Below, piece by piece: positions 8,833 to 47,424 of a stretch of DNA of 64,000 nt; position 1 is the stretch's first letter; every line of letters begins with the position of its first letter. The stretch lies in contig CAYGRO010000002.1 of NCBI GenBank assembly GCA_964352335.1, positions 13,138-77,137 of the forward strand, written 5' to 3'. Made by a program: the position numbers and the translations under genes. Source of the DNA: an uncultured Gammaproteobacteria bacterium (GTDB taxonomy: Bacteria > Patescibacteriota > Patescibacteriia > VMEV01 > CAYQCH01). Under the pieces are notes generated by a model that was given only the letters and a program-made list of their open reading frames with translations, was not told the DNA's origin and ran no database searches.

Positions 8833-9171
8833 ATGATGTTACTATTTCGTCTTATTCTCAATACAGCGGCCTTACTTTTATTACCTTATATCATTAGCGG
8901 GATACAAGTAGAAGGGGTCTATACGGCATTTATTTCAGCCATTATTTTGGGATTATTAAATATTAGTATTCGTCCTTTAGTAAAACTACTCACATTGCCA
9001 ATTAGTATTTTAACTCTTGGTTTATTTGCACTAATAATTAATGCACTATTCTTCTGGTTTGTTGCAAGCTTTGTCGATGGGTTTTCTGTAGTTGGTTTTT
9101 GGCCAGCATTTTTAGGTGCTCTTATTATGAGCATTGTTAGTTGGCTTACAAATCAATTACTAAAGTCTTAG
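8833..9171 (+). CDS. small 4-TM membrane protein, DUF360 / phage holin 4-like family
   Basis: 112 aa with four hydrophobic helices. Overall resemblance to YvlD/DUF360 proteins. Confidence 0.5.
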   Translation: MMLLFRLILNTAALLLLPYIISGIQVEGVYTAFISAIILGLLNISIRPLVKLLTLPISILTLGLFALIINALFFWFVASFVDGFSVVGFWPAFLGALIMSIVSWLTNQLLKS

Positions 9172-17376: not shown

Positions 17377-17403
17377 TTAGCAGTCAGGCTTTGTGAGTGC
17401 TAA
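17377..17403. promoter_or_regulatory. CIRCE element (HrcA operator) upstream of clpB
   Basis: TTAGCAGTC-N9-GAGTGCTAA against the consensus TTAGCACTC-N9-GAGTGCTAA, a 17/18 match. It lies 40-66 nt upstream of the clpB start, in the divergent intergenic region. Confidence 0.7.
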
Positions 17404-17495
17404 TACAAATGTACCCCAAAAAACCTTTCAAGTCAATAGTGCACAGGTCTGATATTCCCATTTTTGCTCGAGAGTTCTATACTATATCTACGTTT

Positions 17496-18680
17496 ATGAA
17501 TAATAGCCAAACTCATATCTTGGGTTCCAAAATAGATTTGCTAAATTCTGATCAAATTGATCAGCTTTTTTTGCAATGGGAAAAATCATCTAAATTGCAT
17601 CATGTCGTCACTTTGAACCCTGAAATTTGTCTGTATGGAGAAGATAAAGAGGATTATCGAAGACATGTCCTCAATCAAGCAGATTTAACAACAAGAGATG
17701 GTTTTGGGATTCGGTTTGGTGCATGGCTATTAGGAACAAAATCTCCAGAAAGAGTGACTGGTGGTACTTTAACAAAAAAGATTATCCAACTTGCATTAAA
17801 GTCAAATAAATCAATTTATTTGCTTGGAGGAGGAAGAGGAGTGGCCAAAAAAACAGCGAAAAAACTTAAATTACATTATCCCAATCTTCAAATCGCGGGT
17901 GCAGAAGAAGGAATGTCAAAACAAGATTATTCACTAACAAACCCTCAATTAGTAAATAGAATCAATCAGTCAGGAGCATCATTTTTATTAGTTGCATTCG
18001 GAGCCCCAAAACAAGAAAAATGGATAAATGCCAATAAAGACAAATTGACAGGTATTCGAATTGCAATTGGGGTTGGAGGTGTTTTTGATTATTTAGCTGG
18101 AGTAGTAGCTAGTCCACCTAAATTTTTAAGATCATTAGGGTTAGAATGGCTTTTTCGCTTAATTACACAAAGAAATAGAGTTAAAAGAGTTTTTAAGGCT
18201 GTTATTCTCTTCCCATTTCTTTGTTTAAAATGGAGATTAAGAATCACTTTGTCCTATAGAAGAAATGTCGTTGGCGTTATTCTCAATGAAAAAAGCGAAA
18301 TTCTTCTCGTTTCTCCCTGGTGGAGTGAAACAACAAAATGGCAATTTCCACAGGGCGGGGTAGATAAAGGTGAAACAGATCAAAATGCGATTCTGCGCGA
18401 AATGCATGAAGAATTAGGGACAGATAAATTAGAAATTGTTCACTATTGGCAAAACTCTTATGAATATGATTGGCCAAAGTGGTATCAATTACTACGAGGA
18501 TACAAAGGACAAAAGCAAAGTATGTTCCAGCTCAAGTTTATTGGTGAGAATACAGATATTGATATCGAAAATGAAGGGGAATTAAGCAAATGGATGTGGT
18601 CAACAAGGTCAGATGTTATCAATAATTTGGCTCCTTCACGAAAATCTATTGGAAAAATTGCACTGAATTTACTCGATTGA
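17496..18680 (+). CDS. fusion protein: WecB/TagA/CpsF-family glycosyltransferase + C-terminal NUDIX hydrolase
   Basis: N-terminal about 250 aa with TagA/WecG features (VTLNPEI, GIRFGAWLLG, YLLGGG, FLLVAFGAPKQEKWI, IAIGVGGVFDYLAG). C-terminal Nudix box GGVDKGETDQNAILREMHEELGT. The start is set at the ATG at 17496, because the CIRCE element lies inside the longer track ORF. Confidence 0.7.
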   Translation: MNNSQTHILGSKIDLLNSDQIDQLFLQWEKSSKLHHVVTLNPEICLYGEDKEDYRRHVLNQADLTTRDGFGIRFGAWLLGTKSPERVTGGTLTKKIIQLALKSNKSIYLLGGGRGVAKKTAKKLKLHYPNLQIAGAEEGMSKQDYSLTNPQLVNRINQSGASFLLVAFGAPKQEKWINANKDKLTGIRIAIGVGGVFDYLAGVVASPPKFLRSLGLEWLFRLITQRNRVKRVFKAVILFPFLCLKWRLRITLSYRRNVVGVILNEKSEILLVSPWWSETTKWQFPQGGVDKGETDQNAILREMHEELGTDKLEIVHYWQNSYEYDWPKWYQLLRGYKGQKQSMFQLKFIGENTDIDIENEGELSKWMWSTRSDVINNLAPSRKSIGKIALNLLD

Positions 18681-23098: not shown

Positions 23099-23335
23099 TT
23101 GCGACGCATGGTCAATCTTACTCAATTCCTTAATAGGGAGCAAATAGAAGATATCAGTTTTAACCGATAGAACAGGTCAGTGTAATTACAAAAATGAATA
23201 AAAAATAAAACCCTCTTAAAGGGTTTTTGTTTTGTGCATCCTATTAAGGAATTGAGACAATAGAGGGGGAAAGAATGATTATCACTATATGAGTAAGTAG
23301 TAGCGTCGCACAATATACCTTATGCGACGCACTAG
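23099..23335. repeat. long imperfect inverted repeat enclosing a terminator hairpin
   Basis: Left arm TGCGACGC...CTTACTCA...ATTCCTTAATAGG at 23102-23140. Right arm CCTATTAAGGAAT...TGAGTAAG...GCGTCGCA at 23241-23311. An extra local hairpin GCGTCGCA-N12-TGCGACGC lies at 23304-23333. Confidence 0.5.
23201..23233. terminator. bidirectional rho-independent terminator between convergent genes
   Basis: AAACCCT-CTTAA-AGGGTTT stem-loop, flanked by an A-run on the left and a TTTTTGTTTTG run on the right. Confidence 0.6.
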
Positions 23336-23617: not shown

Positions 23618-24889
23618 CTATCTATAGTATACCCGATTGGGAAATCTTAAATCAATATACTCTTTTACTTCCCCCTCTATAGACATCTGAGAGTTAAGCG
23701 TCGCAAAAATATCTAGGTAAGATTTTATTGAGTCAGGATTTTGTAGAGGGTCTGCTCCTAAAAGTAATGACCAACCATTATTCATATAAACCTCGAGTTG
23801 ATCAAAGGTTATTGAATCATCTGGTATAAAGACTTTTTCTTGTTCTAAATATCGCTCTATTTCCCCTTCATCTAGTTTTTCAATATCAATTTCACTTAAT
23901 GCTGATTTGATTTCTGAAATTTTATCTTCAACTGTTTTAGCTTGTGCAATTGAATCTGCAAGACTCTCTAGTTCTGCATTTAATTTCGAATCATCATTAT
24001 TAGCCACTTTCGTTTCAGATTCAGGTAACTTCTCTGGGATAACAATAGTTTGTTTATTCGCTGGTTTTAAACGAAATGAATGAATAGATAAAAACGGATA
24101 CTTTTCTAATTCTGAATAGAGTGTGAGAATTGACGCTATATTTCTTTCCGTTAAAACTTGTTCACCAACCTGAGGTATTGTTTCACCAAATTGATAAATA
24201 GTAGGTGTGTCTTCTTTTTCTAAGATTTCTTCACTTGTCGTTTGACGAATAACAGTACCTTGCTTATCTATTGTGAAATATTGATCATCTACACTATAAA
24301 TAAGTATAGATGACTTTTCTTTTAGATCAATTTGCAATGAATGAGATGGCCAATGAGAAGTAAATGTGATAGATTCTAACCCGTATTTATCTCGGATAGC
24401 TTGTTCAACTGTATTTTGATTGAAGAAAAACAGATGAGAACGCTTTATCAAGAAGATGGATCTTTTATCCATATAGTCAAAAACCATCGATTTTAGATCA
24501 TTTGTTTGAATTTCTTCATTACCAAAAACGGCAATACGATCCAAATAAAAGGTTGGTTGGACAAATAGAACGATAAACCAGATAAAGAGTGTTAGTGATA
24601 ACCCTATTTTCGCAAAGAGGTATCGTTTATCCGTAAAGATTTTTCCTAAGACCCTTCTTGCTGTGACTTTTTTTTGGTAAGGGTTTTCAAAAGATTTTTG
24701 ATGAACATCGCGACGCAGATATGATTTCGCTTTTTTGCCTGTAGCATTTCTCTGGAGTCCTTTTAATGCTAGAATTTGTGATAAATTCAAAGATAAAACT
24801 TTATTCAGTTTTTTTTTAACAAATCGGAACATGATCTTGGTAGACCTACCTGATTTCTTTTTTGTTTTGAATGTTGATCGTACTCTCAT
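23618..24889 (-). CDS. cell division protein FtsQ/DivIB-like (POTRA) with C-terminal coiled-coil extension
   Basis: N-terminal basic tail and a TM helix, then a POTRA-like segment (YLDRIAVFGNEEIQTNDL...SHWPSHSLQIDLKEK...YFTIDKQGTVI). Acidic coiled-coil C-terminus. Confidence 0.55.
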   Translation of the reverse strand: MRVRSTFKTKKKSGRSTKIMFRFVKKKLNKVLSLNLSQILALKGLQRNATGKKAKSYLRRDVHQKSFENPYQKKVTARRVLGKIFTDKRYLFAKIGLSLTLFIWFIVLFVQPTFYLDRIAVFGNEEIQTNDLKSMVFDYMDKRSIFLIKRSHLFFFNQNTVEQAIRDKYGLESITFTSHWPSHSLQIDLKEKSSILIYSVDDQYFTIDKQGTVIRQTTSEEILEKEDTPTIYQFGETIPQVGEQVLTERNIASILTLYSELEKYPFLSIHSFRLKPANKQTIVIPEKLPESETKVANNDDSKLNAELESLADSIAQAKTVEDKISEIKSALSEIDIEKLDEGEIERYLEQEKVFIPDDSITFDQLEVYMNNGWSLLLGADPLQNPDSIKSYLDIFATLNSQMSIEGEVKEYIDLRFPNRVYYR

Positions 24890-24894
24890 AGAAG

Positions 24895-25932
24895 CTAATG
24901 TCTTTTTATACCAAATCCTCGCTTAATTCTTCTGAATGACTCAATAATCCAATTCACCCAATATTTTGAAGTTAATGGGAAATCTTGTGCTGGTAATAAA
25001 TACTCAATTTCACCACCAAAACCTTTCTTAAACTTTGTAATTCCATAAAATGGACGCTTAGGATCGTCTGTATCATCAATTCCCCAGAAACTGTATTTCG
25101 TACAACCACGCGCCTTTGCTTCACGTATTGCTTCCCATTGTAGTAAGTATGCAACAGGAACTTTTGAGCGCAAAGAAGCTCCATGATGATAAGAAGCTAC
25201 ATTTCCGTAATACATAATAATGGCAGAAGCAATTATTTCATTTTCATATTTTCCTGTGTAGATAATAACTTCATCATCATCTCTAAATGTATTCACTTGT
25301 TCATGGTAAAGACGATTCGAATATGGAACAAAACGATGCCTCACATGCGTTTCATTCATTAATGTGATAAATGTATCAACATCAGAGTTATTTGTTGATT
25401 TTTCGATTACAACACCATCTTTTTGCGCACGTCTGATTAGATTTCTTGTTGTTTTTCGCATTCCCATGAGTAATTCCTCTTCGGTTGGTTGCAAATCTAA
25501 TTGCCAAACAATTTCAGATAAAACATGAATTGGAGCAATTTTGAATTTTAACTGTTTAAAGAGCGCTTCGTTTTCTTCTGTTCTTTTTAAATAAGGCGCC
25601 ATTCGAATGAAATCATATTTTTGCTCTCTCCCCCACTCTTTTAAATAATCCACGATAATTGTTAAATATTCAGCTGAATAATTTTTTAAAACTGGACCAT
25701 ATGGAATATAGAGATACTTCCCTCTTTTGGCATGTACTAGTAAAACTAAACAAATACCTACTAAAGTAGAATTTTCATAAATCCCTAATTTAAGTGACTC
25801 ATTACCTAGTAATTGTTCTTGCTTAGCAGAATTCCAAGATTGTAGAAAAGGTGGATGATTTTGAGCAAGCAAGAATGATTCCCACTCAGCTTTATTTTCA
25901 CTAATTTTTACTTGAATCAATTTATTATTCAT
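24895..25932 (-). CDS. FemAB-family peptidoglycan branch aminoacyltransferase
   Basis: YYGNVASYHHGASLRSKVPVAYLLQWEAIREAKARGCTKYSFWGI matches the FemABX signature region. GNAT-like duplicated fold and 345 aa length. Confidence 0.75.
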   Translation of the reverse strand: MNNKLIQVKISENKAEWESFLLAQNHPPFLQSWNSAKQEQLLGNESLKLGIYENSTLVGICLVLLVHAKRGKYLYIPYGPVLKNYSAEYLTIIVDYLKEWGREQKYDFIRMAPYLKRTEENEALFKQLKFKIAPIHVLSEIVWQLDLQPTEEELLMGMRKTTRNLIRRAQKDGVVIEKSTNNSDVDTFITLMNETHVRHRFVPYSNRLYHEQVNTFRDDDEVIIYTGKYENEIIASAIIMYYGNVASYHHGASLRSKVPVAYLLQWEAIREAKARGCTKYSFWGIDDTDDPKRPFYGITKFKKGFGGEIEYLLPAQDFPLTSKYWVNWIIESFRRIKRGFGIKRH

Positions 25933-27163
25933 AGTAGTTTTTCAACAATTTAAGGAGTTTTGAACGACTAGCCATTGATAATTTTCTTTGTGTTGGCAAG
26001 TTTATATTTTGTTTCACAAGTTCTTCACTTTTCGGGCAAGATCCTTCTGTATAGTAAATAGATGACCAATTATCTGGTCTTGGCATAATTGTAGATGAAT
26101 ACCAATTCCCTAAAAGAAATCCTTGTTTACGAAAATCACTTCTAACTTGATTTGGCTTACCATGTTTAATCGTAAATCGTAAATATGATGGCTCAGAATT
26201 TATATGGATTTGTTGAGTCGGTATAGAATGAGTAGAACAAAATTCTTGATAAGCAAATGCATGTTCTCTTCTTTTTTTGAGATTTTCTTCTAAATGCAGC
26301 AATTGTTTCGATGCAAATAGAGCCATGGCATTTGGTAATGGTTGAATAAGTTCCTTTGGTTGTTGCCCATTACATTCATTTTTCAAATAAACCTTATTGA
26401 GCAATTTCGTTTTTTGCGCGATAAAGATAAGTAATTGCCCAATTTTAAGTGGCCCAATTAAACGTGCCATCCATGGAATAAGTAGTGGATGAATACTATT
26501 TTGAAAAATGGAAAATACTGAGTTTTCTAGTGCTGTTGTAGATAATTCTTCCAATTTTTTAGCTAATTCAGTACTAGAAGTAATTGTAGCACCACCAGAG
26601 ACAGATGAGATCATCTTATCTCGACCAAAACTTAAAATTGCGGCATCTCCAAATGTCCCAACCAATTGATTATTGTATTTTGCCCCCAAAGAATGGGCAC
26701 AATCCTCGATGACTTTAATATTATGCTTTTTAGCAAGTTCAACTATTGCATTCATTTGAGCGGGGTAACCAAAAGTATGTTGGACAATAATTGCTTTTGT
26801 TTTGGGTGTAATTGCTTTTTCAATAAGACGAGGGTCGATATTAAATGATTCATCAATATCAATATAAATAGGTTTTGCACCAGCCCAGATTACCGAATTT
26901 GGCACGACAATGCATGTATAAGCTTGAATAATAACTTCATCGCCACTTTGTATCTCCAATGCTTTTAAAATAGCGTAGAGTGCAGATCGTCCATTTTTAA
27001 ATAATGAAATTGAACGCTCATCATGCATCGACGAGAGCTGTTTTTTTAATTGTTCGCTAGCAGCTCCACTTTTCCATTTGTTCCAATTCCATGGCAAAAG
27101 CAAACTCATTGCGAGTTTTTGTTGTTGCCAGTCTGAATTTGGTGAATGAGAAATGGAAATCAT
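25925..27163 (-). CDS. DegT/DnrJ/EryC1/StrS-family PLP-dependent aminotransferase
   Basis: GDEVIIQAYTCIVVPNSVIWAGAKPIYIDID...VIEDCAHSLGAKYNNQLVGTFGDAAILSFGRDKMIS. The start is placed at the ATG at 27161-27163, one nt after the upstream stop. Confidence 0.75.
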   Translation of the reverse strand: MISISHSPNSDWQQQKLAMSLLLPWNWNKWKSGAASEQLKKQLSSMHDERSISLFKNGRSALYAILKALEIQSGDEVIIQAYTCIVVPNSVIWAGAKPIYIDIDESFNIDPRLIEKAITPKTKAIIVQHTFGYPAQMNAIVELAKKHNIKVIEDCAHSLGAKYNNQLVGTFGDAAILSFGRDKMISSVSGGATITSSTELAKKLEELSTTALENSVFSIFQNSIHPLLIPWMARLIGPLKIGQLLIFIAQKTKLLNKVYLKNECNGQQPKELIQPLPNAMALFASKQLLHLEENLKKRREHAFAYQEFCSTHSIPTQQIHINSEPSYLRFTIKHGKPNQVRSDFRKQGFLLGNWYSSTIMPRPDNWSSIYYTEGSCPKSEELVKQNINLPTQRKLSMASRSKLLKLLKNYYE

Positions 27164-27164
27164 A

Positions 27165-28775
27165 TTATGAATCTGTAAGTAGGTTTGGAATAAATTGTTC
27201 AGATTCTCTTCCTTCACAGAGAACAACAGTTGGTTGGTTTCGAACAAATTCGAGAAGTGATTCTTGATCTTTTGGATGCAAGATTGATTCTTCAGGGAAC
27301 CCTTGTTGTAAAAGAGATAAACGCAATAAGTCTCTCTGTTGACTAGGCAGTAAAAGGATTTTATCAAAAACTTCTGAAGCTCGTTTAGCAATTAATTCAT
27401 GTGATGTTTTTGATAAGTCAGCGAGTTCAATAACTTCTTTGAAAATAAGAATCTTTTTTTCGTCTAGTGAACTGACATCATCAAATGCCAGAAGAATACT
27501 GGGTACATTTGCATTATAAGAATCATCAATAATCCAAGAATCATCATTAATCATTTTGACTTCCATTGTTCTTTCAATTTGAGGAAAAGTTTTGAGTGCA
27601 CTTTGAATTTCCTTTAAGGACATTCCAAGTTGTTTAGCTATAGCAATTGCACCCAATGCATTAATGATATGGCCCTTACCAAATAAGGGTAAAGATAGAT
27701 TCATTTCACTTAAAGTAAACTTAGACTCATTTTTGTTCATTTGAATATTTTGAGCAGAATAATGTACATCTGGAGCAAACCCATAAGTAATAGGACTGAT
27801 TCCTCTAAGTTCAAAGGCTTCAAGTAATTCTGGACTTTCACCATTCGCGAAAACCTTAGTCATATCGTCAACTGATTTTACAAGCTCAAATTTTGTTTTC
27901 TCGATATTTTTTTGAGAACCAAATAATTCTAAATGTTGATTCGTTAAACCTGTCATAATCCCATAGTCAGGCGAAACGATATCTGCAATCCTTTTGACTT
28001 CCCCTTCTCGATACGCTCCCATTTCTACAATAAAAAATTCATGTGTGGGTTGTAATTCATCTAAAATAAGCTTAGCAATACCGGTATCAACATTTAGATG
28101 TTTTGGTGTTTTTAAGACAGAGTATTTTTTTGAAAGGATATGGCCAAGTAATTCCTTCATCGATGTCTTACCATAACTTCCAGTAATACCAATGACAATG
28201 AGATCCTTATGCGAAATCATTTTTTCTCTCGCTTTTTTCATTAATTGTTTTTGCATGAGAAAATTCGGAATAAATAAGACAGAAAACACAGTAAAAACGA
28301 TGAGAGGTTGAATGATCTCAATCGCAAGTAATTGTTCTGGCCAAAATAAATAACGAGATGCCAAATAGATTTCTACAACTAATATTGAAACAAAGAGAAC
28401 CCAGATTTTAGAGGTGAATGTCGGTATTTGTAATGTATGTTGCTTTAAATGAAGGATTGTTTGAATGAAACGGAATAGGAAAAAAGCAATTATAGCTGTT
28501 AATAAGAAATCAAAAGCACCAACTTGTGAAGAAATACTTGTTCGTAATAATAACTGCCAAGTAAGAAAAAAACCGATCAAAATAGAACGATAGGAAGAGA
28601 AAATAAGCTTAATAAATTTGGGCTGTTTTATTTCTGAAACCAATCGATCGATTCTATATTGTTTTAATTGAATATAATGTAACCAAAAAAGTAGTGATCT
28701 AGCGATCGCTACAACCCATAGTACTGTCAAAAGGGTGAATGCATGCGCACTATATAATTGGAGTAAATAAGTCAT
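27165..28775 (-). CDS. MurF-like Mur ligase fused to an N-terminal polytopic membrane domain
   Basis: C-terminal about 350 aa carry the Mur ligase P-loop IGITGSYGKTS and the MurF-type DDSYNANVPS motif. The N-terminal about 185 aa form 5-6 TM helices in place of the usual MurF domain 1. Confidence 0.7.
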   Translation of the reverse strand: MTYLLQLYSAHAFTLLTVLWVVAIARSLLFWLHYIQLKQYRIDRLVSEIKQPKFIKLIFSSYRSILIGFFLTWQLLLRTSISSQVGAFDFLLTAIIAFFLFRFIQTILHLKQHTLQIPTFTSKIWVLFVSILVVEIYLASRYLFWPEQLLAIEIIQPLIVFTVFSVLFIPNFLMQKQLMKKAREKMISHKDLIVIGITGSYGKTSMKELLGHILSKKYSVLKTPKHLNVDTGIAKLILDELQPTHEFFIVEMGAYREGEVKRIADIVSPDYGIMTGLTNQHLELFGSQKNIEKTKFELVKSVDDMTKVFANGESPELLEAFELRGISPITYGFAPDVHYSAQNIQMNKNESKFTLSEMNLSLPLFGKGHIINALGAIAIAKQLGMSLKEIQSALKTFPQIERTMEVKMINDDSWIIDDSYNANVPSILLAFDDVSSLDEKKILIFKEVIELADLSKTSHELIAKRASEVFDKILLLPSQQRDLLRLSLLQQGFPEESILHPKDQESLLEFVRNQPTVVLCEGRESEQFIPNLLTDS

Positions 28776-28781
28776 GATAAT

Positions 28782-29558
28782 TTATGAATGTTTTACAAAT
28801 TCCATTATCGCTTTTGCTACTAATTCTGGATTGTTTTTCACTAAGTTATGACGCGCACCTTCAAAGACTTTCAGTTCAGATTCTTTGATAAGCTTATGCA
28901 TTTTTTTTCCGTCAGAAAGAGGTGTAGCACCATCATCACTTCCCCAAAGCAAAAGTGTCTTATGATGAATTTGTGGCAATAATGGCTGTAAATCTTCGTC
29001 TAGTACATTAATAATTGTTTCTTTCATTACCCCATCTGCTTTGAGATAATCTGTTGACCCCGCTACTTTATACAATATTTTTTTGGCTGGTTCTTCTAAT
29101 TTTGAAATAAGTGGTAGATCAAAAAACTTTTTCCCAATCTTGGCCGATGTTTTTAAGACTCTTCGTTTTACGGTATAAGCATCTGGTTTTACTCCAGCAG
29201 ATGCACAGAGAATAAGATTGTTTAAATCAGGTGCATACTTAATTGTATATTTGATGGAAACACGGCCTCCAAAAGAATGACCAAAAAGAGTAAATTGCTT
29301 AATCTCCAATGCTTGTGTGAAATCATGTACCCAATCTCGATAATCAGAAACAGTCCATGCTTTTGGTGGTTTAGGCGTATTTCCCCAACCTGGTAAATCA
29401 GGAACAATAATACGAAGACCTTGTTTCGCTAAAAGTGGACCAAGTTCTTGGTAATGCGTTGAATCAGCTGGCCATCCATGAAGCATGATAATAATGGTAT
29501 TACCACTTCCCCATTCTCGATAATGCGCAACGCGATCTTGAACAGTAATTGAAGCCAT
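28782..29558 (-). CDS. alpha/beta-fold hydrolase
   Basis: GHSFGG nucleophile elbow. IIMLHGWPADS oxyanion region. Confidence 0.75.
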   Translation of the reverse strand: MASITVQDRVAHYREWGSGNTIIIMLHGWPADSTHYQELGPLLAKQGLRIIVPDLPGWGNTPKPPKAWTVSDYRDWVHDFTQALEIKQFTLFGHSFGGRVSIKYTIKYAPDLNNLILCASAGVKPDAYTVKRRVLKTSAKIGKKFFDLPLISKLEEPAKKILYKVAGSTDYLKADGVMKETIINVLDEDLQPLLPQIHHKTLLLWGSDDGATPLSDGKKMHKLIKESELKVFEGARHNLVKNNPELVAKAIMEFVKHS

Positions 29559-29565
29559 AGATTCG

Positions 29566-30852
29566 TTAGTTTAAAGAGATTTCAGTTTTCCCATTCATAT
29601 AGGCTCTAAGAGCTTGTGGAATAGAAATGCTTCCATCTTCTTTTTGGTGATTTTCCAATAATGGGATCAAAATTCTAGGGCTAGCAATAAGTGTATTATT
29701 CAATGTATGACAATACTGTTTTTCATCACCATCTTTATAGCGAATATTAGATCGTCTAGCTTGCCAGTCACCGAGGTAGGAAGCTGAATGGGTTTCTCCA
29801 TAAGATTGACGAGAAGGCATCCAACATTCAATATCAAACATTTCTTTTTTTCCGGCTCCCATATCCCCTGTTGCAATTTGTAATACTCGATAAGGAAGTT
29901 CTAATGAAGCCAAAAAGTCTTCCGCGTTTTTTAAGATTTCACGCAACATTTCTCTACCGGCTTTTTCATCTGCTTTCATGAAAATAACTTGTTCTACTTT
30001 TGTAAATTGCTTGATGCGATAAAGTCCTTTTGTATCTTTTCCGTAACTTCCAACTTCTGTTCTAAAACAATTTGTCATTGCGCAATATTTAAGTGGAAGT
30101 TTGTCAATATCAAGAAATTCATTTGAATGGTATCCAAGTAGTGTAACTTCTGAAGTACCGATTAAATACAACGGTGGTTCATCTAAATCCTTACGTTGAT
30201 CATATATTTTGAATGTTTCATCTTCTGCAAATGGAAAATGACCAGAACCTTCAAAGTGTTCACGCTTAGCCATTACTGGCATATCTAATTGAGTAAATCC
30301 TCGTTCAGTAAGAAAATCTAAAGCGTAATTTACAAGTGCTCTTTGCAATTGTGCTGCTTCATTTTTCAAAACATAGCCACGAGTCCCCATTAACTTTACC
30401 CCACGTTCGATGTCAATAATATCTAAAGCTGTTCCAAGCTCTATATGATCTTTAGGCTCAAAGCTAAACTGAGTTGGCTCTCCAACGGTTTTTATTACTG
30501 TATTTGCTTCTTCACCTCCAATAGGTGCTTCTTCAACTGGGATTTGTGGTACAAGTAACATTAATTCGTTAAATCTTGCTTCTACTGCACCTAATTCATC
30601 TTTTATTGCATGAGCTTGATCCGAAATTGTTTTCATTTCTGCAACAAGCGTCTTTTTTTCATCTGGTGATGCTTGAGCAATTTTGTCTGAAGCTTGATTT
30701 TGTTGAGCTCTAAATTCTTCATGTTGAGTAATTAGTTCACGTCTTTTTTCATCAATTTGAAGAAGTTCATCTAGATTAAGATCTATTTGTTTGTTTTTAA
30801 TAGCGGTTTTGACTAAATCTACGTTTTCTCGGATGAATTTACTGTCTAACAT
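29566..30852 (-). CDS. serS: seryl-tRNA synthetase
   Basis: N-terminal coiled-coil arm and class II core motifs (FRTEVGSYGKDTKGLYRIKQF...). 428 aa. Confidence 0.95.
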   Translation of the reverse strand: MLDSKFIRENVDLVKTAIKNKQIDLNLDELLQIDEKRRELITQHEEFRAQQNQASDKIAQASPDEKKTLVAEMKTISDQAHAIKDELGAVEARFNELMLLVPQIPVEEAPIGGEEANTVIKTVGEPTQFSFEPKDHIELGTALDIIDIERGVKLMGTRGYVLKNEAAQLQRALVNYALDFLTERGFTQLDMPVMAKREHFEGSGHFPFAEDETFKIYDQRKDLDEPPLYLIGTSEVTLLGYHSNEFLDIDKLPLKYCAMTNCFRTEVGSYGKDTKGLYRIKQFTKVEQVIFMKADEKAGREMLREILKNAEDFLASLELPYRVLQIATGDMGAGKKEMFDIECWMPSRQSYGETHSASYLGDWQARRSNIRYKDGDEKQYCHTLNNTLIASPRILIPLLENHQKEDGSISIPQALRAYMNGKTEISLN

Positions 30853-30936
30853 ATCGGTCTATTATGCTAAAAACAGGGATTTTGATCCCTTTTAATGATA
30901 GAAATATACCAAAATTCAGTGTTTTTGTCCAAGATA

Positions 30937-30965: not shown

Positions 30966-31011
30966 CGGCATTCTGGCACATACGTTTTGTGTCATAACAA
31001 AGGAGTGTTCC

Positions 31012-31632
31012 GTGAAGAAGTTCCCAATTGTGATTTTGTTGTTGTTCGCTTTCGTCATGCCCTGTATGGCGCAACAGGACAACGACAAGAAGAACACGAT
31101 GGCCACGCCGAAGGTCGACGAGCCCGCCAACCTGGCGACCCAAGTCGAGATCCTGAAGGCCAAGCTCGAGCGCGAGCAGCTTTTGACCCAGATCGCAGTC
31201 AAGCGGTCGAAGGAGCACGAGCAGCGTCTGCTGAACTTGCTCAAGCGCGTCAAGGCGATCGTCGCTGAGAACGAGAAGCTCAAGCTCCAGAACAAGGCGC
31301 TCGCCGAGCGGGTCGCAAGGAGCAAGCCTCCTATCGAGAATCCCACGGAGAAGAAGCAGGTGACCTCGAGCAAGCCCATCATCAAGGTCGTCGGTGAACC
31401 TCATCGGGTGACTGATCACGTGGCGCTGGTCGTCAACATCAAGGGCGCCAACTCCGGCGTCAAGGCTTGGTGGCATGGGACCGGCATGAAGAAGGCTATG
31501 CTTCTCAAGCTCAAGCAAGAGAAGAACGGTCACTTCTCGCTTCTCGTTGACAAGCCAACGAAGGAGCTCACGGTCTACATCAAGGCCGTCAATGGGAAGG
31601 AGAACACAACGCTCGCCATCCCGATCAAGTAG
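31012..31632 (+). CDS. secreted Lys/Glu-rich coiled-coil protein encoded by a GC-rich island
   Basis: GTG start after a strong SD. Signal peptide MKKFPIVILLLFAFVMPCMAQQ. Codons are GC-ending (AAG, GAG, CTC, GCC) and the line at 31081-31140 counts 38/60 GC, against 19/60 in the flank at 30841-30900. No homolog recognised. Confidence 0.6.
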   Translation: MKKFPIVILLLFAFVMPCMAQQDNDKKNTMATPKVDEPANLATQVEILKAKLEREQLLTQIAVKRSKEHEQRLLNLLKRVKAIVAENEKLKLQNKALAERVARSKPPIENPTEKKQVTSSKPIIKVVGEPHRVTDHVALVVNIKGANSGVKAWWHGTGMKKAMLLKLKQEKNGHFSLLVDKPTKELTVYIKAVNGKENTTLAIPIK

Positions 31633-31639
31633 CTGGCCC

Positions 31640-31700
31640 CCGCCGGCAAGAGACCCGTGCTGGCAGATCGCTCTATGAGTGGTTTGCTGGCACGGGTCTT
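31640..31700 (+). terminator. stem-loop at the 3' end of the GC-rich gene
   Basis: AGACCCGTGC...GCACGGGTCT 10-bp stem with a 29-nt loop, followed by TTTCAATTT. Terminator-like but the U-tract is weak. Confidence 0.35.
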
Positions 31701-37696: not shown

Positions 37697-38782
37697 CTAA
37701 CGAATCATTGTTTCTTGTTGAGTTGAAGCTAATATAACTTCACTCATTGCTTCTATGTCTTCTAAAATAATCCCTGTGCCACGTACAGCACATGTAGCAG
37801 GATCATCAGCTATTTGTACCGGAATACTTAAGGCTTCTGCGAGAGCCTGGTCTAATCCTTTTAATAAAGAACCAGCTCCAAATAATGTAATTCCACGTTC
37901 ATAAATATCCGCAACTAATTCAGGTGGTGTTCCTTCTAATGTTGCTTTCACATTATCAATGAAAAACTTAAGAGAGCGTGAAATCGCTTGTCGAATTTGA
38001 GCATCAGACACGGTGACTTCTCTTGGTAATCCAGAAATAAGATTTCTCCCTCTCACCTCCATCGATAATGATTCAGCTAAAGGAATAGCAGATCCAATCT
38101 TTGTTTTGGCTGCTTCCGCCATATGTGAACCTAAAAGGATATTGAATTCATGTCTGGCAAATTGAATGATGTCATTATCAAATTGCTTACTAGACATTTG
38201 TAAACTTTTCCAAGTTACCACCCCGCTTAAAGAAATAACAGCAATTTCAATTCTACCTCCACCAATATCAATAACCATTGTTCCATTTGGTTCTTGAATA
38301 GGGATTCTTGCACCAATTGCTCCCGCTAAAATTTGCTCTGTTAATAACACTTCGCGTGCCCCAGCTCCTAATACAGCATCTTCAACAGCTTTTTTTTCTA
38401 CCTCAGTTAAATCCATTGGAATAGCAACAACAACTCGTGGCCTTGGTAAAATATTGAAGTTTTCTGCGTGAATTTTATCAATGAAAAATCGGATCATTTT
38501 TTCGCATACTTCAAAATCAGAAATAATCCCCTGTAATAGAGGTGAAACAACGGTGATATGTGGAGGGGTTTTCCCCAACATGGCTTCTGCTTCGCTTCCT
38601 ACAGCGATAATTTGATTTGTTTTTGTATTCAATGCAACGACAGATGGCTCATCAATCACAATACCGCGATCTTTTACATAAATACGGGTATTTGATGTAC
38701 CTAGATCGATACCAATGTCTTTAGAAAATCTACCAAGGAATTTATTGATCATAGAAAAAAAGCGTAAATTCAGCGTATACAA
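37697..38782 (-). CDS. mreB: rod shape-determining protein MreB
   Basis: DIGIDLGTSNTRIYVKDRGIVIDEPSVVA phosphate-1 motif and actin-fold motifs (DIGGGRIEIAV). Confidence 0.9.
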   Translation of the reverse strand: MYTLNLRFFSMINKFLGRFSKDIGIDLGTSNTRIYVKDRGIVIDEPSVVALNTKTNQIIAVGSEAEAMLGKTPPHITVVSPLLQGIISDFEVCEKMIRFFIDKIHAENFNILPRPRVVVAIPMDLTEVEKKAVEDAVLGAGAREVLLTEQILAGAIGARIPIQEPNGTMVIDIGGGRIEIAVISLSGVVTWKSLQMSSKQFDNDIIQFARHEFNILLGSHMAEAAKTKIGSAIPLAESLSMEVRGRNLISGLPREVTVSDAQIRQAISRSLKFFIDNVKATLEGTPPELVADIYERGITLFGAGSLLKGLDQALAEALSIPVQIADDPATCAVRGTGIILEDIEAMSEVILASTQQETMIR

Positions 38783-41604: not shown

Positions 41605-42592
41605 AAGACTCGAGTTGAAGTCTTAGATTAGTACTTGTCGTGATTTGAAATAAAATATCTGAGAGCTGATCTTGTGCAGTAATAATTTTTTCATCAGTAA
41701 GGTTCTCAAACTGTAAACCAGAAAGCTCCGTGAAGAATAAGAGATCTGTTCTTTGTAATTTTAGCATAAGTAAGTCTCTTAGGAGTACTTTCCATAATTC
41801 AATTCTCTCATTCCATATTTTTTTTTGTTCACTAGGAGTCTTTTTTTTCTCTTTAAATAACGTTTCAATAATCTTTAGTCGTTTTCCAGGAGTCGTAGAG
41901 ATAAATTGAATAAAAAGCTCTCTTTCTTCGTTGAGTGATGATAATGCTGTTTCATCATGAACGAATTCTTGATAATTCCCTGGTAATTGTCTCGATTTTT
42001 GCCATAATTTTAGATCACCAGGATATTCATCTGGTGAAATTGCAGTAAATTCTATGACAGAACAACGCGAAATAATGGTTTTAGGTAATCGTGCAGGATA
42101 GCGAGAGAGTAGAAAAATGGCACAAGAAGCGGGTGGCTCTTCTAATGTTTTTAATAAAGCATTGCTTGCTCCATTCGACATTAAATCAGCATCATCAATG
42201 ACAAGATACTTTCGTTCCCCCATAACAGCAGATCTATAGGATTGTTGAATAGCAGTTCTTATCAATTCAACTGATAGATTTTGCTTGTCTTCTGGTTTAG
42301 CCACAAATAAGACATCTGGATGAGATCCTTGAAGAATCATTTTACAAGAATGACATTGTTCACAAGCGAGCTTATTAGTTGTTTGTTCTCCACCAAAAAG
42401 TGAATCTGAGGCGTCTTGAGTACAGAGAAACGACTGAATGAGCGCTGAAACTACTGTTCGTTTCCCTATTCTGGCTGGACCGCTAAATAAATAGCTCTGA
42501 CCTAGTGAGTTTTGGTCATGCAGATTTTGAAAATAGGAGATGATTTTGCTATGGCCAATGAGCTCAGGCATATGAAATCTATTTTGTAGCAA
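41588..42592 (-). CDS. holB: DNA polymerase III subunit delta'
   Basis: GQSYLFSGPARIGKRT P-loop-like region. Zinc-module cysteines CEQCHSC. SRC-like SRCSVIEF segment. Confidence 0.75.
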   Translation of the reverse strand: MLQNRFHMPELIGHSKIISYFQNLHDQNSLGQSYLFSGPARIGKRTVVSALIQSFLCTQDASDSLFGGEQTTNKLACEQCHSCKMILQGSHPDVLFVAKPEDKQNLSVELIRTAIQQSYRSAVMGERKYLVIDDADLMSNGASNALLKTLEEPPASCAIFLLSRYPARLPKTIISRCSVIEFTAISPDEYPGDLKLWQKSRQLPGNYQEFVHDETALSSLNEERELFIQFISTTPGKRLKIIETLFKEKKKTPSEQKKIWNERIELWKVLLRDLLMLKLQRTDLLFFTELSGLQFENLTDEKIITAQDQLSDILFQITTSTNLRLQLESFALHV

Positions 42593-43592
42593 GGACAGAT
42601 CGTTTATAAGAGTCGAGGTTTTCTAAAGCAATACCAGTACCACGTGCCACACAAAGTAATGAGTCATCAGCAACATAGCCTGAAACACCCGTTGCACGAG
42701 TGAATAATTTATCGATATTTCGTAGAAGACTAGATCCCCCAGAAAAAATCATTCCTTTATCCATGACATCTGCTGATAATTCTGGTGGAGTTTTTTGTAA
42801 AACATCTTTTGTCGCTTGAATAATCCCTTCTAATTGAGGTTGAATCGCTTCTGTAATATCGTCTGAACTAATTCTAATTGTTTTTGGCAATCCTGTAATC
42901 ATATCTCGCCCTCGAACATCCGTATAAAGTTTGTCATCTAAATACAAAGCTGATCCAATCTTAATCTTAACTTGTTCTGCTGTTTGCTCCCCTACAGCTA
43001 ATCCATATTTTTTTCTCAAATGTTCTGAAACAGCTTGGTCTAATTTATTTCCACCAATACGCACCGATGTTGATGCTACAATTCCACCAAGAGAAATGAC
43101 CGCAATTTCGGCAGTTCCACCACCAATGTCGACAATCATATGACCAGATGCACCACCAATAGGGATATTTGCTCCAATAGCGGCAGCTACGGGTTCTTTG
43201 ATAATATAAGCGGCTTTGGCTCCAGCAGCGATGGTCGCATCGATAACAGCACGTCTTTCTGTAGAAGTAATTCCAGCAGGAACAGCCACCATTACTTCGG
43301 GACGCAAAAATCGTAAACCACCTAAAGCTTTGTTAATAAAGTATCGTAACATCGCTTCTGTCGTTTTATAATCAGCAATTACTCCATCTTTTAATGGACG
43401 AGAAGCAACAATTGTTTCTGGTGTTCGCCCAAGCATTTCTTTGGCTTCAGCACCAACAGCTAGAACTTTTTTATCTAATGTTGAAATGGCAACAACAGAT
43501 GGTTCATTAATAACTATTCCACGTTTAGGGATATACACCAAAACATTAGTTGTACCAAGATCAATTCCAATTTTTTTCACGAATAATGACAT
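42579..43592 (-). CDS. MreB-like actin homolog (second paralog)
   Basis: KIGIDLGTTNVLVYIPKRGIVINEPSVVA and DIGGGTAEIAV motifs. 337 aa. Confidence 0.8.
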   Translation of the reverse strand: MSLFVKKIGIDLGTTNVLVYIPKRGIVINEPSVVAISTLDKKVLAVGAEAKEMLGRTPETIVASRPLKDGVIADYKTTEAMLRYFINKALGGLRFLRPEVMVAVPAGITSTERRAVIDATIAAGAKAAYIIKEPVAAAIGANIPIGGASGHMIVDIGGGTAEIAVISLGGIVASTSVRIGGNKLDQAVSEHLRKKYGLAVGEQTAEQVKIKIGSALYLDDKLYTDVRGRDMITGLPKTIRISSDDITEAIQPQLEGIIQATKDVLQKTPPELSADVMDKGMIFSGGSSLLRNIDKLFTRATGVSGYVADDSLLCVARGTGIALENLDSYKRSVLATK

Positions 43593-45468: not shown

Positions 45469-45470
45469 GT

Positions 45471-47148: not shown

Positions 47149-47153
47149 AGAAT

Positions 47154-47408: not shown

Positions 47409-47424
47409 ATAGAGATGATAATAA

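What the first reader, a model, noticed from the sequence alone, without database searches (positions are those of the whole stretch)
23618..28775. Cell-envelope cluster: membrane-anchored MurF-like ligase, DegT aminotransferase, FemAB transferase, FtsQ-like protein
Four co-directional, tightly packed genes. murF-like and degT are joined by a stop-1nt-ATG junction. degT and femAB overlap by 8 bp.

The combination is unusual. It holds a D-Ala-D-Ala-adding-type Mur ligase with its N-terminal domain replaced by a 5-6 TM membrane domain. It also holds a sugar-aminotransferase-type PLP enzyme with a roughly 75-aa N-terminal extension, a FemABX tRNA-dependent aminoacyl transferase, and a POTRA divisome protein with a long acidic coiled-coil tail.

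This looks like a dedicated module for building or modifying a non-canonical peptidoglycan stem or cross-bridge, or an amino-sugar-decorated wall polymer, at the membrane.
Basis: partly seen in the sequence, partly recalled or inferred. Interest (0 to 1): 0.55.

Follow-up and report, generated by a model that had tools for sequence, protein, structure and literature searches.

The report
Membrane-embedded MurF cell-wall operon
This is a conserved cell-wall-building operon of tiny "CPR" bacteria. Its last peptide-adding enzyme (MurF) carries a membrane domain where the usual substrate-gripping head would be, and it always sits next to an uncharacterised hydrolase. That unreported MurF variant is also common in gut Firmicutes.

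Summary
The four genes are real, on the minus strand, and joined as described (TAA-T-ATG; 8-bp overlap). The unit is larger than reported: SerRS, α/β-hydrolase, TM-MurF, DegT-like, FemX-like and FtsQ are packed with gaps of 7 nt or less.

All four domain calls hold. Two details do not:
- The "75-aa N-extension" of DegT is an ORF-calling artefact.
- The acidic FtsQ "tail" is an internal insertion.

The ligase is MurF-type, not CapB, cyanophycin synthetase or MurT. Its N-domain is replaced by a conserved 5-helix membrane domain with invariant polar motifs on the cytoplasmic face. This domain has no Pfam or PDB match.

This architecture is a large family in CPR bacteria and Firmicutes, nearly always preceded by the same catalytically intact α/β-hydrolase. 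In Firmicutes a bona fide Ddl follows it. In CPR, DegT-like and FemX-like follow it.

In three CPR cell-wall gene clusters it is the only MurF-type ligase. In two of them it lies a few genes upstream of mraY.

So this is most likely the lineage's core peptidoglycan-precursor and division operon, not a side-pathway. The roles of the membrane domain, the hydrolase and the DegT-like enzyme are unknown. Whole-genome absence of a canonical murF was not testable here.

The parts
30903..30931 (-). Best sigma-70-like promoter match, just upstream of serS. It is a candidate operon start.
   Evidence: TGGACA-17-TATATT with an extended TG, 10 of 12 matches. This is a consensus match only; the total number of such matches in the region is not above shuffled expectation.
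29566..30852 (-). Seryl-tRNA synthetase, the first gene of the tightly packed run.
   Evidence: ORF. The orthologous position carries Seryl_tRNA_N/tRNA-synt_2b in L001 and L003. The gap to the next gene is 7 nt. SerRS is upstream in 27 of 40 CPR loci.
28782..29558 (-). Soluble α/β-hydrolase (258 aa), the invariant upstream partner of the membrane MurF.
   Evidence: Abhydrolase_1 7e-28 and Hydrolase_4 8e-22. The closest NCBIfam is EstV-type lipase, 108 bits against a cut-off of 300. The triad S95 (GHSFGG), D209 and H237 is conserved in 85-86 of 86 orthologues. It lies immediately upstream of TM-MurF in 35/35 CPR and 35/37 Firmicute loci.
28221..28775 (-). N-terminal membrane domain of TM-MurF (aa 1-185): 5 TM helices, N-terminus out and C-terminus in. 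Conserved motifs lie on the cytoplasmic face: Q36-x-K38-x-Y40-x3-R44 and P118-x2-T121-x-K123.
   Evidence: Hydropathy. AlphaFold helices 2-37, 61-78, 87-111, 122-141 and 145-187. Invariant columns. Homologous in Firmicutes, with shared Q..Y and T.(K/R) motifs. No Pfam hit. No PDB fold match, best E 1.6. Found only fused to MurF-type ligases.
27165..28220 (-). MurF-type ATP-dependent ligase body of TM-MurF (aa 186-536): central and C-terminal Mur ligase domains.
   Evidence: TIGR01143 murF 1e-62, positions 67-404/418. P-loop GITGSYGKT, DDSYNAN, IELA..H and EGR motifs. PDB sequence best hit is E. coli MurF 1gg4 at 3.7e-32. Foldseek best hit is MurF 4qf5 at 8e-26, TM 0.71.
25925..27163 (-). DegT/DnrJ/EryC1/StrS-family PLP enzyme (412 aa), translationally coupled to murF. 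Substrate unknown.
   Evidence: PF01041 6e-59. All NCBIfam equivalogs are far below cut-off; the best is LegC-family at 160 bits against 420. PLP motifs IEDCAH and SFGRDK are visible in the sequence. PDB best hit is QdtB 3frk at 9e-37 over aa 56-221 only. It is present directly after TM-MurF in 30/37 CPR loci and 0/36 Firmicute loci.
24895..25932 (-). FemABX-family transferase (345 aa), of short FemX size.
   Evidence: PF02388 5.5e-37 in two stretches, and Acetyltransf_6 3e-13. The nearest equivalog is FemX (UDP-MurNAc-pentapeptide-lysine alanyltransferase), 56 bits against a cut-off of 500. PDB hits are S. aureus FemX 6snr at 4e-13 and W. viridescens FemX at 5e-6. It lies downstream of TM-MurF in 32/35 CPR loci.
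23618..24889 (-). FtsQ/DivIB-like bitopic divisome protein (423 aa). It has a basic cytoplasmic N-extension, one TM segment (aa 89-117), a POTRA-like region, and a β-domain interrupted by a 77-aa acidic insertion.
   Evidence: FtsQ_DivIB_C 22.3 bits against 21; FtsQ PRK05529 at 1.9e-4. Orthologues carry POTRA_1. A profile built from this family hits the ORF between murG and ftsA in L090 at 3e-9. Alignment A3 locates the insertion.
23207..23227 (.). Hairpin plus T-runs on both strands in the convergent gap. It is a candidate bidirectional terminator ending the operon.
   Evidence: AAAACCCTTTAAGAGGGTTTT followed by ATTTTTTATT on the minus strand. Pattern match only.

Best explanation
The region is the core peptidoglycan-precursor and division operon of a CPR (Parcubacteria-like) bacterium: serS, α/β-hydrolase, TM-MurF, DegT-like, FemX-like, ftsQ.

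[quoted passage not shown] Its usual N-terminal nucleotide-binding domain is replaced by a conserved five-helix membrane domain. This places the catalytic body at the inner face of the membrane, next to MraY. The invariant polar residues of the membrane domain (Q36, K38, Y40, R44, T121, K123) sit at the cytoplasmic interface. They are inferred to take over recognition of the diphosphate/nucleotide end of the substrate.

The FemX-like enzyme then adds a branch amino acid from aminoacyl-tRNA to the position-3 residue of the stem. FtsQ ties the operon to division.

The α/β-hydrolase is always present and has an intact catalytic triad. The DegT-like PLP enzyme is present in most CPR loci. Both are conserved accessory enzymes of this step with unknown substrates.

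Shown: gene identities, architecture, conservation, synteny and cluster context. Inferred: activity, topology, substrate, the role of the membrane domain, and that no second MurF exists.
For: - **MurF identity.** TIGR01143 is by far the best model (212 bits against 74 for MurC), and it covers everything except the N-domain. PDB sequence and fold searches both rank MurF first. Canonical MurF motifs are invariant in the 37-sequence alignment A1, which samples CPR-type members.
- **Only MurF-type ligase in CPR PG clusters.**
  - L088/L089: murC-murB-murA-glmU-abhydrolase-TM-MurF-DegT-MBL-FemAB-dagK-mraY-murL-murD-ftsW-murG.
  - L090: ftsI-murE-yfiH-murC-murB-murA-x-glmU-abhydrolase-TM-MurF-DegT-x-x-FemAB-dagK-mraY-ftsW-murG-ftsQ-ftsA-ftsZ.
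  - L079: PBP-murE-murC-murA-3 ORFs-abhydrolase-TM-MurF-DegT-FemAB.
- **Firmicute context.** In Firmicutes the same abhydrolase-TM-MurF pair is followed by a ligase that passes NCBI's D-Ala-D-Ala ligase cut-offs (340 against 262; 287 against 246), in 35-38 of 40 loci.
- **Family size and conservation.** 3149 proteins at E<=1e-10; the top 120 are 484-567 aa with 85-100% coverage. At least 590 hits were found among species-representative genomes. The N-domain profile finds 1104 cluster representatives, and all of the best 150 are either this architecture or short fragments.
- **Membrane domain is under selection.** It has invariant polar motifs. The AlphaFold model is confident, with pLDDT 93.9 and pTM 0.88, and TM5 continues as one helix into the ligase body.
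- **Operon structure.** Gaps of 7, 6, 1, -8 and 5 nt.
- **Published core gene set.** The core gene table for Parcubacteria lists one COG0770 and one COG0769 ligase per genome (PMC4508563 Table S1).
Against: - No whole genome could be scanned, so a canonical murF elsewhere in this genome is not excluded. The 64-kb window holds no other Mur ligase, but it is only part of a 163-kb contig.
- In the Parcubacteria core table the COG0770 gene is adjacent to ftsI. TM-MurF is not adjacent to ftsI in my loci, where the ftsI neighbour is MurE-like. The mapping of that row is therefore uncertain.
- The protein misses the TIGR01143 cut-off (212 against 288.6) and lacks the domain that binds UDP in known MurFs.
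- Pseudalkalibacillus (L059) probably also has a standard ddl-murF, by inference from Bacillaceae, which would make its copy a paralogue.
- No Ddl was seen within 10 kb in any CPR locus, so the dipeptide source is unidentified.
- No biochemical data exist, and I found no paper on this architecture.
Confidence: 0.7

Rival explanations
1. Accessory paralogue. A canonical soluble MurF exists elsewhere, and this operon builds or modifies a non-standard stem, cross-bridge or a second wall polymer.
For: - The N-domain is replaced and the score is below the family cut-off.
- A DegT-type enzyme is unusual in PG clusters.
- The FemAB and PLP pair has a weak echo of the 'IMCC1989' FemAB/PLP families (TIGR04421 at 1.4e-4; PF27889 faint).
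- L059 (Bacillaceae) carries the module with its own Ddl, a VanX-like dipeptidase and a PBP, like a self-contained second set.
- The published Parcubacteria murF row is adjacent to ftsI, unlike this gene.
Against: - Three CPR PG clusters contain murA/B/C/E or D, mraY and murG, but no other MurF-type gene.
- CPR genomes are small (most under 1 Mb; PMC4508563), so two conserved MurFs are unlikely; this is inference.
- The Firmicute partner is an ordinary Ddl in a housekeeping context, with tsaE-tsaB-rimI upstream.
- FemAB persists in loci that lack DegT.
Confidence: 0.15
2. Lipid-linked substrate. TM-MurF is the only MurF but acts on a membrane-bound tripeptide intermediate (lipid I/II-tripeptide) rather than on UDP-MurNAc-tripeptide. 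The membrane domain binds the undecaprenyl-diphosphate end.
For: - The UDP-binding domain is lost.
- Conserved K/R/Y/Q/T residues lie at the predicted cytoplasmic membrane interface.
- CPR MurE next to ftsI also lacks its N-terminal domain.
- There are precedents of PG enzymes working on lipid II: MurT/GatD and S. aureus FemX appear among the structural relatives.
- The esterase/lipase-like partner could act on a lipid.
Against: - There is no direct evidence.
- MraY is found in L088/L089 and L090 and MurC in L079, L088 and L090, all with normal family matches, which fits the ordinary UDP-linked order of steps.
- MurT scores are negligible (30 bits against 800).
- Basic residues at the interface are also expected from the positive-inside rule.
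Confidence: 0.12
3. Alternative dipeptide or D-amino-acid supply. In CPR, DegT-like plus FemX-like (with or without the hydrolase) occupy the position that Ddl holds after TM-MurF in Firmicutes. They provide or remodel MurF's amino-acid substrate, for example a PLP-dependent D-Ala source or tRNA-dependent dipeptide formation, instead of building a cross-bridge.
For: - Positional replacement: Ddl follows TM-MurF in 35-38 of 40 Firmicute loci, and DegT/FemAB follow it in 30/37 and 32/35 CPR loci.
- There is no Ddl in any CPR flank, nor in the ftsI-to-ftsZ cluster L090.
- MurF-alanine racemase fusions exist as an NCBI family (NF008897).
- FemAB relatives in the PDB include tRNA-dependent peptide synthases (9wqw).
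Against: - Genome-wide absence of ddl and alr in CPR was not tested.
- From my own knowledge, not checked here, no DegT-family racemase is known.
- DegT is missing from 7 of 37 CPR loci that keep FemAB.
- The nearest characterised FemAB relatives add bridge residues to Lys.
Confidence: 0.08

Closest known systems
Canonical MurF (UDP-MurNAc-tripeptide:D-Ala-D-Ala ligase; E. coli 1GG4, A. baumannii 4QF5, TIGR01143)
   Same: The central ATP-binding and C-terminal domains, the P-loop, and the DxYNAN, ELG..H and GR motifs. It is the best sequence and fold match. Relatives are the only MurF-type gene in dcw-type clusters and lie next to Ddl in Firmicutes.
   Different: The roughly 80-aa soluble N-terminal domain is replaced by a 185-aa five-helix membrane domain with its own conserved motifs. 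There is an obligate α/β-hydrolase neighbour. The score is below the family cut-off.
Natural Mur chimeras (MurE-MurF, MurC-Ddl, MurD-FtsW and others; Shirakawa et al. 2023, PMC10214165)
   Same: A Mur ligase is covalently joined to another pathway element. MurD-FtsW shows that a Mur ligase can be tethered to a membrane protein.
   Different: Here the membrane part is not a known enzyme, and it replaces a domain rather than being appended. This architecture is not in that catalogue.
MurT (lipid II isoglutaminyl synthase subunit)
   Same: It has a Mur-ligase fold without the classical UDP-binding N-domain and acts on a lipid-linked precursor. It appears among the fold matches.
   Different: Negligible family score (30 bits against 800). 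No GatD partner in the operon, and none among the neighbours annotated here. The C-terminal domain and motifs are MurF-type.
FemX of Weissella viridescens and S. aureus FemX (lipid II:glycine glycyltransferase)
   Same: The FemAB Pfam domain matches in two stretches, with a GNAT-type match over the second half. It has the short size of Weissella FemX. The 'kfkkgfgg' stretch aligns to 'afkkvwgt' of 6SNR.
   Different: Very distant: 56 bits against a cut-off of 500. The acceptor and the amino acid are unknown.
DegT/DnrJ/EryC1/StrS sugar aminotransferases (QdtB, PseC, LegC, ArnB)
   Same: A strong Pfam match, and the PLP Lys and Asp motifs are present.
   Different: Only the N-terminal half (aa 28-221) aligns well, and every equivalog is far below cut-off. 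No partner dehydratase or oxidase that would make a keto-sugar lies in the operon. It forms a CPR-wide family embedded in PG clusters.
Bifunctional MurF/alanine racemase (NCBIfam NF008897)
   Same: A precedent for a PLP enzyme physically coupled to MurF. Here the PLP enzyme is translationally coupled.
   Different: From my own knowledge, not tested here, alanine racemase belongs to a different PLP fold class from the DegT family. The similarity found here is confined to the MurF part.

Membership tests
MurF (TIGR01143 / Mur ligase family) | Central Mur ligase domain with an ATP P-loop | tested here: met
   PF08245 5e-35. GITGSYGKT is invariant across homologues.
MurF (TIGR01143 / Mur ligase family) | MurF-type C-terminal domain and motifs; best match to MurF rather than to MurC, MurD, MurE, Mpl, MurT, CphA or CapB | tested here: met
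   TIGR01143 212 bits through position 404/418, against MurC 74, MurE 45, MurT 30 and cyanophycin synthetase 28. No CapB/PgsB hit is listed. Foldseek and PDB rank MurF first. PF02875 was not detected in this protein but is present in most homologues.
MurF (TIGR01143 / Mur ligase family) | Soluble N-terminal domain that binds the UDP end of the substrate | tested here: not met
   The model match starts at position 67. Residues 1-185 are five TM helices.
MurF (TIGR01143 / Mur ligase family) | Score above the curated family cut-off | tested here: not met
   212.3 bits against 288.6. Relatives score 231-243.
MurF (TIGR01143 / Mur ligase family) | Genomic role as the MurF of the PG cluster: the only MurF-type gene in the cluster, near mraY or next to ddl | tested here: met
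   Met in relatives L088, L090 and L079 and in Firmicute loci. In the window itself the cluster is fragmented. It keeps ftsQ downstream, with mreBCD-pbp2 about 5 kb upstream.
MurF (TIGR01143 / Mur ligase family) | D-Ala-D-Ala addition to MurNAc-tripeptide, and being the sole such enzyme in the genome | not testable with these tools
   This needs enzymology or complementation, plus whole-genome scans.
DegT/DnrJ/EryC1/StrS aminotransferases | Pfam domain above cut-off, with the PLP-binding Lys and Asp | tested here: met
   200.5 bits against 19.8. The motifs IEDCAH and SFGRDK are present.
DegT/DnrJ/EryC1/StrS aminotransferases | Membership of a characterised equivalog (PseC, LegC, ArnB, WecE, RfbH, DesI) | tested here: not met
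   All are far below cut-off; the best is 160 bits against 420.
FemABX aminoacyl-tRNA transferases | FemAB domain above cut-off | tested here: met
   128 bits against 24, matched in two stretches, plus a GNAT-type Acetyltransf_6 hit.
FemABX aminoacyl-tRNA transferases | Equivalog-level match to FemX, and use of aminoacyl-tRNA on a PG precursor | tested here: not met
   NF047883 scores 56 bits against 500. The activity itself is not testable here.
FtsQ/DivIB | Bitopic protein with POTRA and an FtsQ C-terminal domain, located in the dcw context | tested here: inconclusive
   One TM segment. FtsQ_DivIB_C scores 22.3 against 21, with no single stretch significant. POTRA_1 is seen only in orthologues. 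A family profile hits the murG-ftsA intergene ORF of L090 at 3e-9.
   Cyanophycin synthetase 22-28 bits against 850-877. MurT 22-30 bits against 800. No PgsB family is listed.

The most novel reading that the evidence does not exclude
The last 'cytoplasmic' step of peptidoglycan precursor synthesis is carried out in CPR bacteria and many gut Firmicutes by an integral-membrane MurF. A new five-helix domain, together with an obligate α/β-hydrolase partner, recognises the substrate in a new way, possibly a lipid-linked tripeptide intermediate. In CPR the adjacent DegT-like and FemX-like enzymes replace the classical Ddl/Alr supply of the terminal dipeptide. Together with the N-domain-less MurE next to ftsI, this would mean that the late Mur pathway is organised differently in these lineages.
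Probability: 0.15. Interest if true: 0.8.

Novelty: new variant of a known kind. Interest (0 to 1): 0.55.

Why it matters
MurF is an essential enzyme and an antibiotic target. From my own knowledge, it is described as a soluble three-domain enzyme.

The variant here has a conserved membrane domain in place of the nucleotide-binding domain. It also has a fixed hydrolase partner. It is widespread in CPR bacteria and in abundant gut Oscillospirales.

- It offers a concrete way to ask how Mur ligases hand precursors to MraY at the membrane.
- Inhibitors aimed at the MurF N-domain/UDP pocket would not apply to these organisms.
- It assigns two conserved genes of unknown function (the α/β-hydrolase and the DegT-like PLP enzyme) to the peptidoglycan pathway. 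These are testable leads to the unknown wall chemistry of CPR bacteria.

Tried and rejected
- **Other architectures of the membrane domain.** A profile search of 1.84 billion representatives found only the MurF fusion or fragments.
- **Is the Peregrinibacteria locus L061 a dcw cluster?** No. MurD lies 6 kb away but the neighbours are unrelated.
- **CapB, cyanophycin synthetase or MurT classification.** Rejected on scores.
- **Van-type ligase next to the Firmicute copy.** Rejected. It passes the D-Ala-D-Ala ligase cut-offs and is far below the Van cut-offs.
- **Literature.** Six searches for a membrane MurF, CPR MurF, or FemAB+DegT found nothing relevant. PMC8871954 excluded CPR. PMC12786226 was not relevant.
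- **Parcubacteria core table (PMC4508563).** I tried to use it to prove a single MurF. It shows one COG0770 gene per genome, but that gene is adjacent to ftsI, so it cannot be mapped with certainty.
- **Ddl in CPR.** None was found in the flanks, but genome-wide presence could not be tested.
- **RNA features.** No tRNA or Rfam family lies in the window.

Full report
**What is in the sequence**

The window is a low-GC (35.5%) genome with the gene content of a CPR/Parcubacteria bacterium. It holds two MreB genes, MreC, PBP2, a DUF4012 protein, MurJ, many tRNA synthetases and few biosynthetic genes.

The finding's four ORFs lie on the minus strand at 28775..27165, 27163..25925, 25932..24895 and 24889..23618. 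I read the junctions directly. They are TAA-T-ATG between the ligase and the PLP enzyme, an 8-bp overlap (ATGAATAA) between the PLP enzyme and FemAB, and 5 nt before ftsQ.

The packed run continues upstream. An α/β-hydrolase (29558..28782) and seryl-tRNA synthetase (30852..29566) are joined by gaps of 6 and 7 nt. The best promoter-like match lies just upstream of serS (30931-30903). A hairpin with T-runs on both strands sits at 23207-23227 in the convergent gap. Both are pattern matches only.

**Check of the domain calls**

- **Ligase.** Pfam gives Mur_ligase_M at 5e-35. NCBIfam gives murF TIGR01143 at 212 bits over model positions 67-404 of 418. Next come MurC at 74 bits, MurT at 30 (cut-off 800) and cyanophycin synthetase at 28 (cut-off 877). 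No CapB/PgsB hit is listed. So the ligase is MurF-type without the MurF N-domain.
- **PLP enzyme.** DegT_DnrJ_EryC1 at 6e-59.
- **Transferase.** FemAB at 5.5e-37.
- **Division protein.** FtsQ_DivIB_C is marginal, at 22.3 bits against a cut-off of 21.

- The 75-aa extension of DegT belongs only to the longest ORF, which starts at a TTG inside murF. From the ATG at 27163 the protein is 412 aa, and it aligns from residue 1-2 with orthologues of 405-433 aa.
- The acidic stretch of FtsQ is a 77-aa insertion (aa 286-362, 22 D/E). It lies inside the C-terminal domain, upstream of the conserved final strand. There is also a basic 65-aa N-terminal extension. Only the closest relatives (L001, L006) share both features.

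**The membrane MurF**

Hydropathy and a confident AlphaFold model (pLDDT 93.9, pTM 0.88) give five TM helices: 2-37, 61-78, 87-111, 122-141 and 145-187. The last helix runs without a break into the ligase body.

The loops rich in K and R (38-60, 108-123, 173-192) place the N-terminus outside and the ligase in the cytoplasm. This topology is inferred from the positive-inside rule.

The domain is not just an anchor. Q36, K38, Y40, R44, P118 and T121 are invariant or nearly so in alignments that reach down to about 20% N-domain identity, and K123 is nearly invariant. All lie at the predicted cytoplasmic ends of TM1 and TM4.

The domain has no Pfam match and no PDB fold match, with a best E of 1.6. 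A profile of it finds 1104 cluster representatives. Among the best 150, all are 480-585-aa MurF fusions or short fragments.

The ligase body matches MurF best by sequence (1gg4, 3.7e-32) and by fold (4qf5, 8e-26, TM 0.71).

**Distribution and synteny**

Full-length homologues are abundant. There are 3149 proteins at E<=1e-10, named Parcubacteria, Nealsonbacteria or Spechtbacterales where a name exists.

I analysed the best 80 loci. By record title and gene content they split into 40 CPR and 40 Firmicute loci. The Firmicutes include Oscillospiraceae, Acutalibacteraceae, Christensenellaceae, uncultured Bacilli and one isolate, Pseudalkalibacillus sp. R45.

| Feature near TM-MurF | CPR loci | Firmicute loci |
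|---|---|---|
| α/β-hydrolase immediately upstream | 35/35 | 35/37 |
| DegT-like directly downstream | 30/37 | 0/36 |
| FemAB downstream | 32/35 | 0/32 |
| FtsQ-like after FemAB (profile search) | 26 loci | not seen |
| D-Ala-D-Ala ligase downstream | none within 10 kb | 35-38 of 40 |

- Denominators are the loci with enough flanking sequence to evaluate each feature.
- The Firmicute ligase passes the NCBI cut-offs for D-Ala-D-Ala ligase (340 against 262; 287 against 246) and is far below the Van-ligase cut-offs.
- The Firmicute N-domain is homologous to the CPR one, with the same Q..Y and T.(K/R) motif positions.
- The Firmicute family is very large: 7872 proteins at E<=1e-30 among the 8000 candidates scored.
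- The hydrolase keeps its Ser95-Asp209-His237 triad and its HG motif in 85-86 of 86 orthologues. Its nearest named relatives are esterases and lipases, all below cut-off.

**Is it the organism's MurF?**

Homologues of the DegT-like protein led to CPR loci where the module sits inside classical cell-wall clusters.

- **Two Gottesmanbacteria contigs (L088, L089).** The order is yfiH-murC-murB-murA-glmU-hydrolase-TM-MurF-DegT-MBL-FemAB-dagK-mraY-murL-murD-ftsW-murG. Identities were checked with NCBIfam, and the TM-MurF carries the motif VKEYRFDR.
- **A second Gottesmanbacterium (L090).** The order runs from ftsI to ftsZ: ftsI-murE-yfiH-murC-murB-murA-x-glmU-hydrolase-TM-MurF-DegT-x-x-FemAB-dagK-mraY-ftsW-murG-ftsQ-ftsA-ftsZ.
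- **A Patescibacteria genome (L079).** The order is PBP-murE-murC-murA-three ORFs-hydrolase-TM-MurF-DegT-FemAB.

In all three, TM-MurF is the only MurF-type ligase. In L088/L089 and L090 it lies a few genes upstream of mraY. Together with the Ddl partnership in Firmicutes, this makes it most likely the working D-Ala-D-Ala-adding enzyme, not a side-pathway ligase.

The published Parcubacteria core set lists one COG0770 and one COG0769 ligase per genome (PMC4508563 Table S1). That fits. However, its COG0770 gene is adjacent to ftsI, whereas in my loci the ftsI neighbour is MurE-like. The row therefore cannot be mapped with certainty.

I could not scan a whole genome, so a canonical murF elsewhere remains possible. 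The window itself has no other Mur ligase.

**The other genes**

- **FemAB.** The protein is 345 aa, the short FemX size. Its closest equivalog is the UDP-MurNAc-pentapeptide-lysine alanyltransferase, but at 56 bits against a cut-off of 500. PDB relatives are S. aureus FemX (4e-13) and W. viridescens FemX (5e-6). Some CPR loci carry a second FemAB between the hydrolase and TM-MurF. The MurE next to ftsI in CPR matches the Lys-adding T. maritima enzyme best. This fits a Lys-type wall with a tRNA-built branch, by inference.
- **DegT-like.** It has the PLP Lys and Asp motifs but matches sugar aminotransferases well only over aa 28-221. It belongs to a CPR-wide family. No gene for a keto-sugar-forming partner lies in the operon. 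Its substrate is unknown.

I considered three roles for DegT: a nucleotide-sugar or precursor amination, a D-amino-acid or dipeptide supply, and an aminoacyl-amino-sugar pathway together with FemAB. The supply idea rests on its occupying the place Ddl has in Firmicutes, and MurF-alanine racemase fusions exist as an NCBI family. The third idea rests only on faint similarity to the 'IMCC1989' FemAB/PLP families. None is supported beyond gene context. FemAB persists where DegT is absent, so the two are not strictly interdependent.

**Mechanism I commit to (confidence 0.7)**

This is the lineage's core PG-precursor and division operon.

1. TM-MurF performs the MurF reaction at the inner face of the membrane. 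The conserved interface motifs substitute for the lost nucleotide-binding domain, and the enzyme sits near MraY.
2. FemX-like adds a branch residue to the stem.
3. FtsQ links the operon to the divisome.
4. The hydrolase and the DegT-like enzyme are conserved accessory activities of this step.

The gene identities, architecture, conservation and cluster context are shown. The activity, topology, substrate and sole-copy status are inferred.

The rivals, with their confidence, are:

- An accessory paralogue (0.15).
- A lipid-linked substrate (0.12).
- A Ddl-independent dipeptide supply (0.08).

**Comparison with known systems and novelty**

The closest known thing is canonical MurF. This protein works like one by every sequence and context test I could run, but it fails two membership features: the N-terminal domain and the curated cut-off.

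A catalogue of natural Mur chimeras (PMC10214165) lists MurE-MurF, MurC-Ddl, MurG-MurC, MurC-MurB and MurD-FtsW, but no membrane MurF. My literature searches found no description of it.

I rate it a new variant of a known kind. The pathway is ordinary. The enzyme architecture and its fixed hydrolase partner are not described. Interest is moderate (0.55).

Noticed in passing
window 31010-31700: A 690-bp island of 57.7% GC in a 35.5% GC genome. It lies between serS and a cytidylyltransferase gene. It encodes a 206-aa Lys-rich protein with a signal-peptide-like N-terminus on the opposite (+) strand, followed by a 20-bp-stem hairpin at 31652-31698. The relative L001 has only a 75-aa ORF at this position. 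This could be a foreign insertion or an assembly chimera.
   Followed up: partly
L090:590-1762 and L079:2111-3337: In these CPR loci the Mur ligase directly after ftsI is MurE-like (best PDB hit T. maritima MurE, 6e-73 and 5e-66). It is only 390-408 aa and aligns from about residue 90 of MurE, with no room upstream for an N-terminal domain. So MurE, like MurF, lacks its classical UDP-binding domain in these CPR genomes.
   Followed up: partly
L088:12357-14935: The Gottesmanbacteria PG cluster encodes a MurL-type UDP-MurNAc-L-Ala-L-Glu epimerase (365 bits, cut-off 700) next to murD. This suggests that the L-Glu-then-epimerise route known from Xanthomonadales is used in CPR.
   Followed up: no
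L059:9217-17589 (Pseudalkalibacillus sp. R45): In this isolate the hydrolase-TM-MurF-Ddl trio is followed by a VanX-like D-Ala-D-Ala dipeptidase (Peptidase_M15), a 380-aa protein with no family match, and a PBP2B-type class B PBP. It looks like a self-contained second wall-precursor set.
   Followed up: partly
L011:9003-9989, L013:8235-9215, L014:1-939, L016:572-1540: These loci have a second, divergent FemAB paralogue (about 30% identity to the window's) inserted between the hydrolase and TM-MurF. This suggests a two-residue branch in those lineages.
   Followed up: no
L088:9221-9865; L090:11190-12543: Extra genes are wedged between DegT and FemAB in Gottesmanbacteria: an MBL-fold hydrolase (GloB-like) in L088, and a Colicin_V/CAP protein plus a Phage_holin_4_2 family protein in L090. 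The window has its own Phage_holin_4_2 gene at 8833-9171.
   Followed up: no
L006 (CAYQCH010000019.1): This is the closest of the 80 loci from the species-representative genome scan (39% ligase identity, 59-66% for the flanking genes, identical gene order). It is deposited as 'uncultured Gammaproteobacteria'. Several other CPR-type loci are labelled Saccharibacteria. These are probably taxonomic mislabels of MAGs.
   Followed up: no
window 17397-18680: A WecG/TagA-family glycosyltransferase is fused to a NUDIX hydrolase domain (427 aa). The same fusion is conserved at the same place in L001.
   Followed up: no
window 37697-38782 and 42579-43592; 43594-48918: There are two MreB paralogues 4 kb apart. 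A DUF4012 protein and three GT2 glycosyltransferases lie downstream of the second. This is an envelope-polymer cluster next to the elongasome genes.
   Followed up: no
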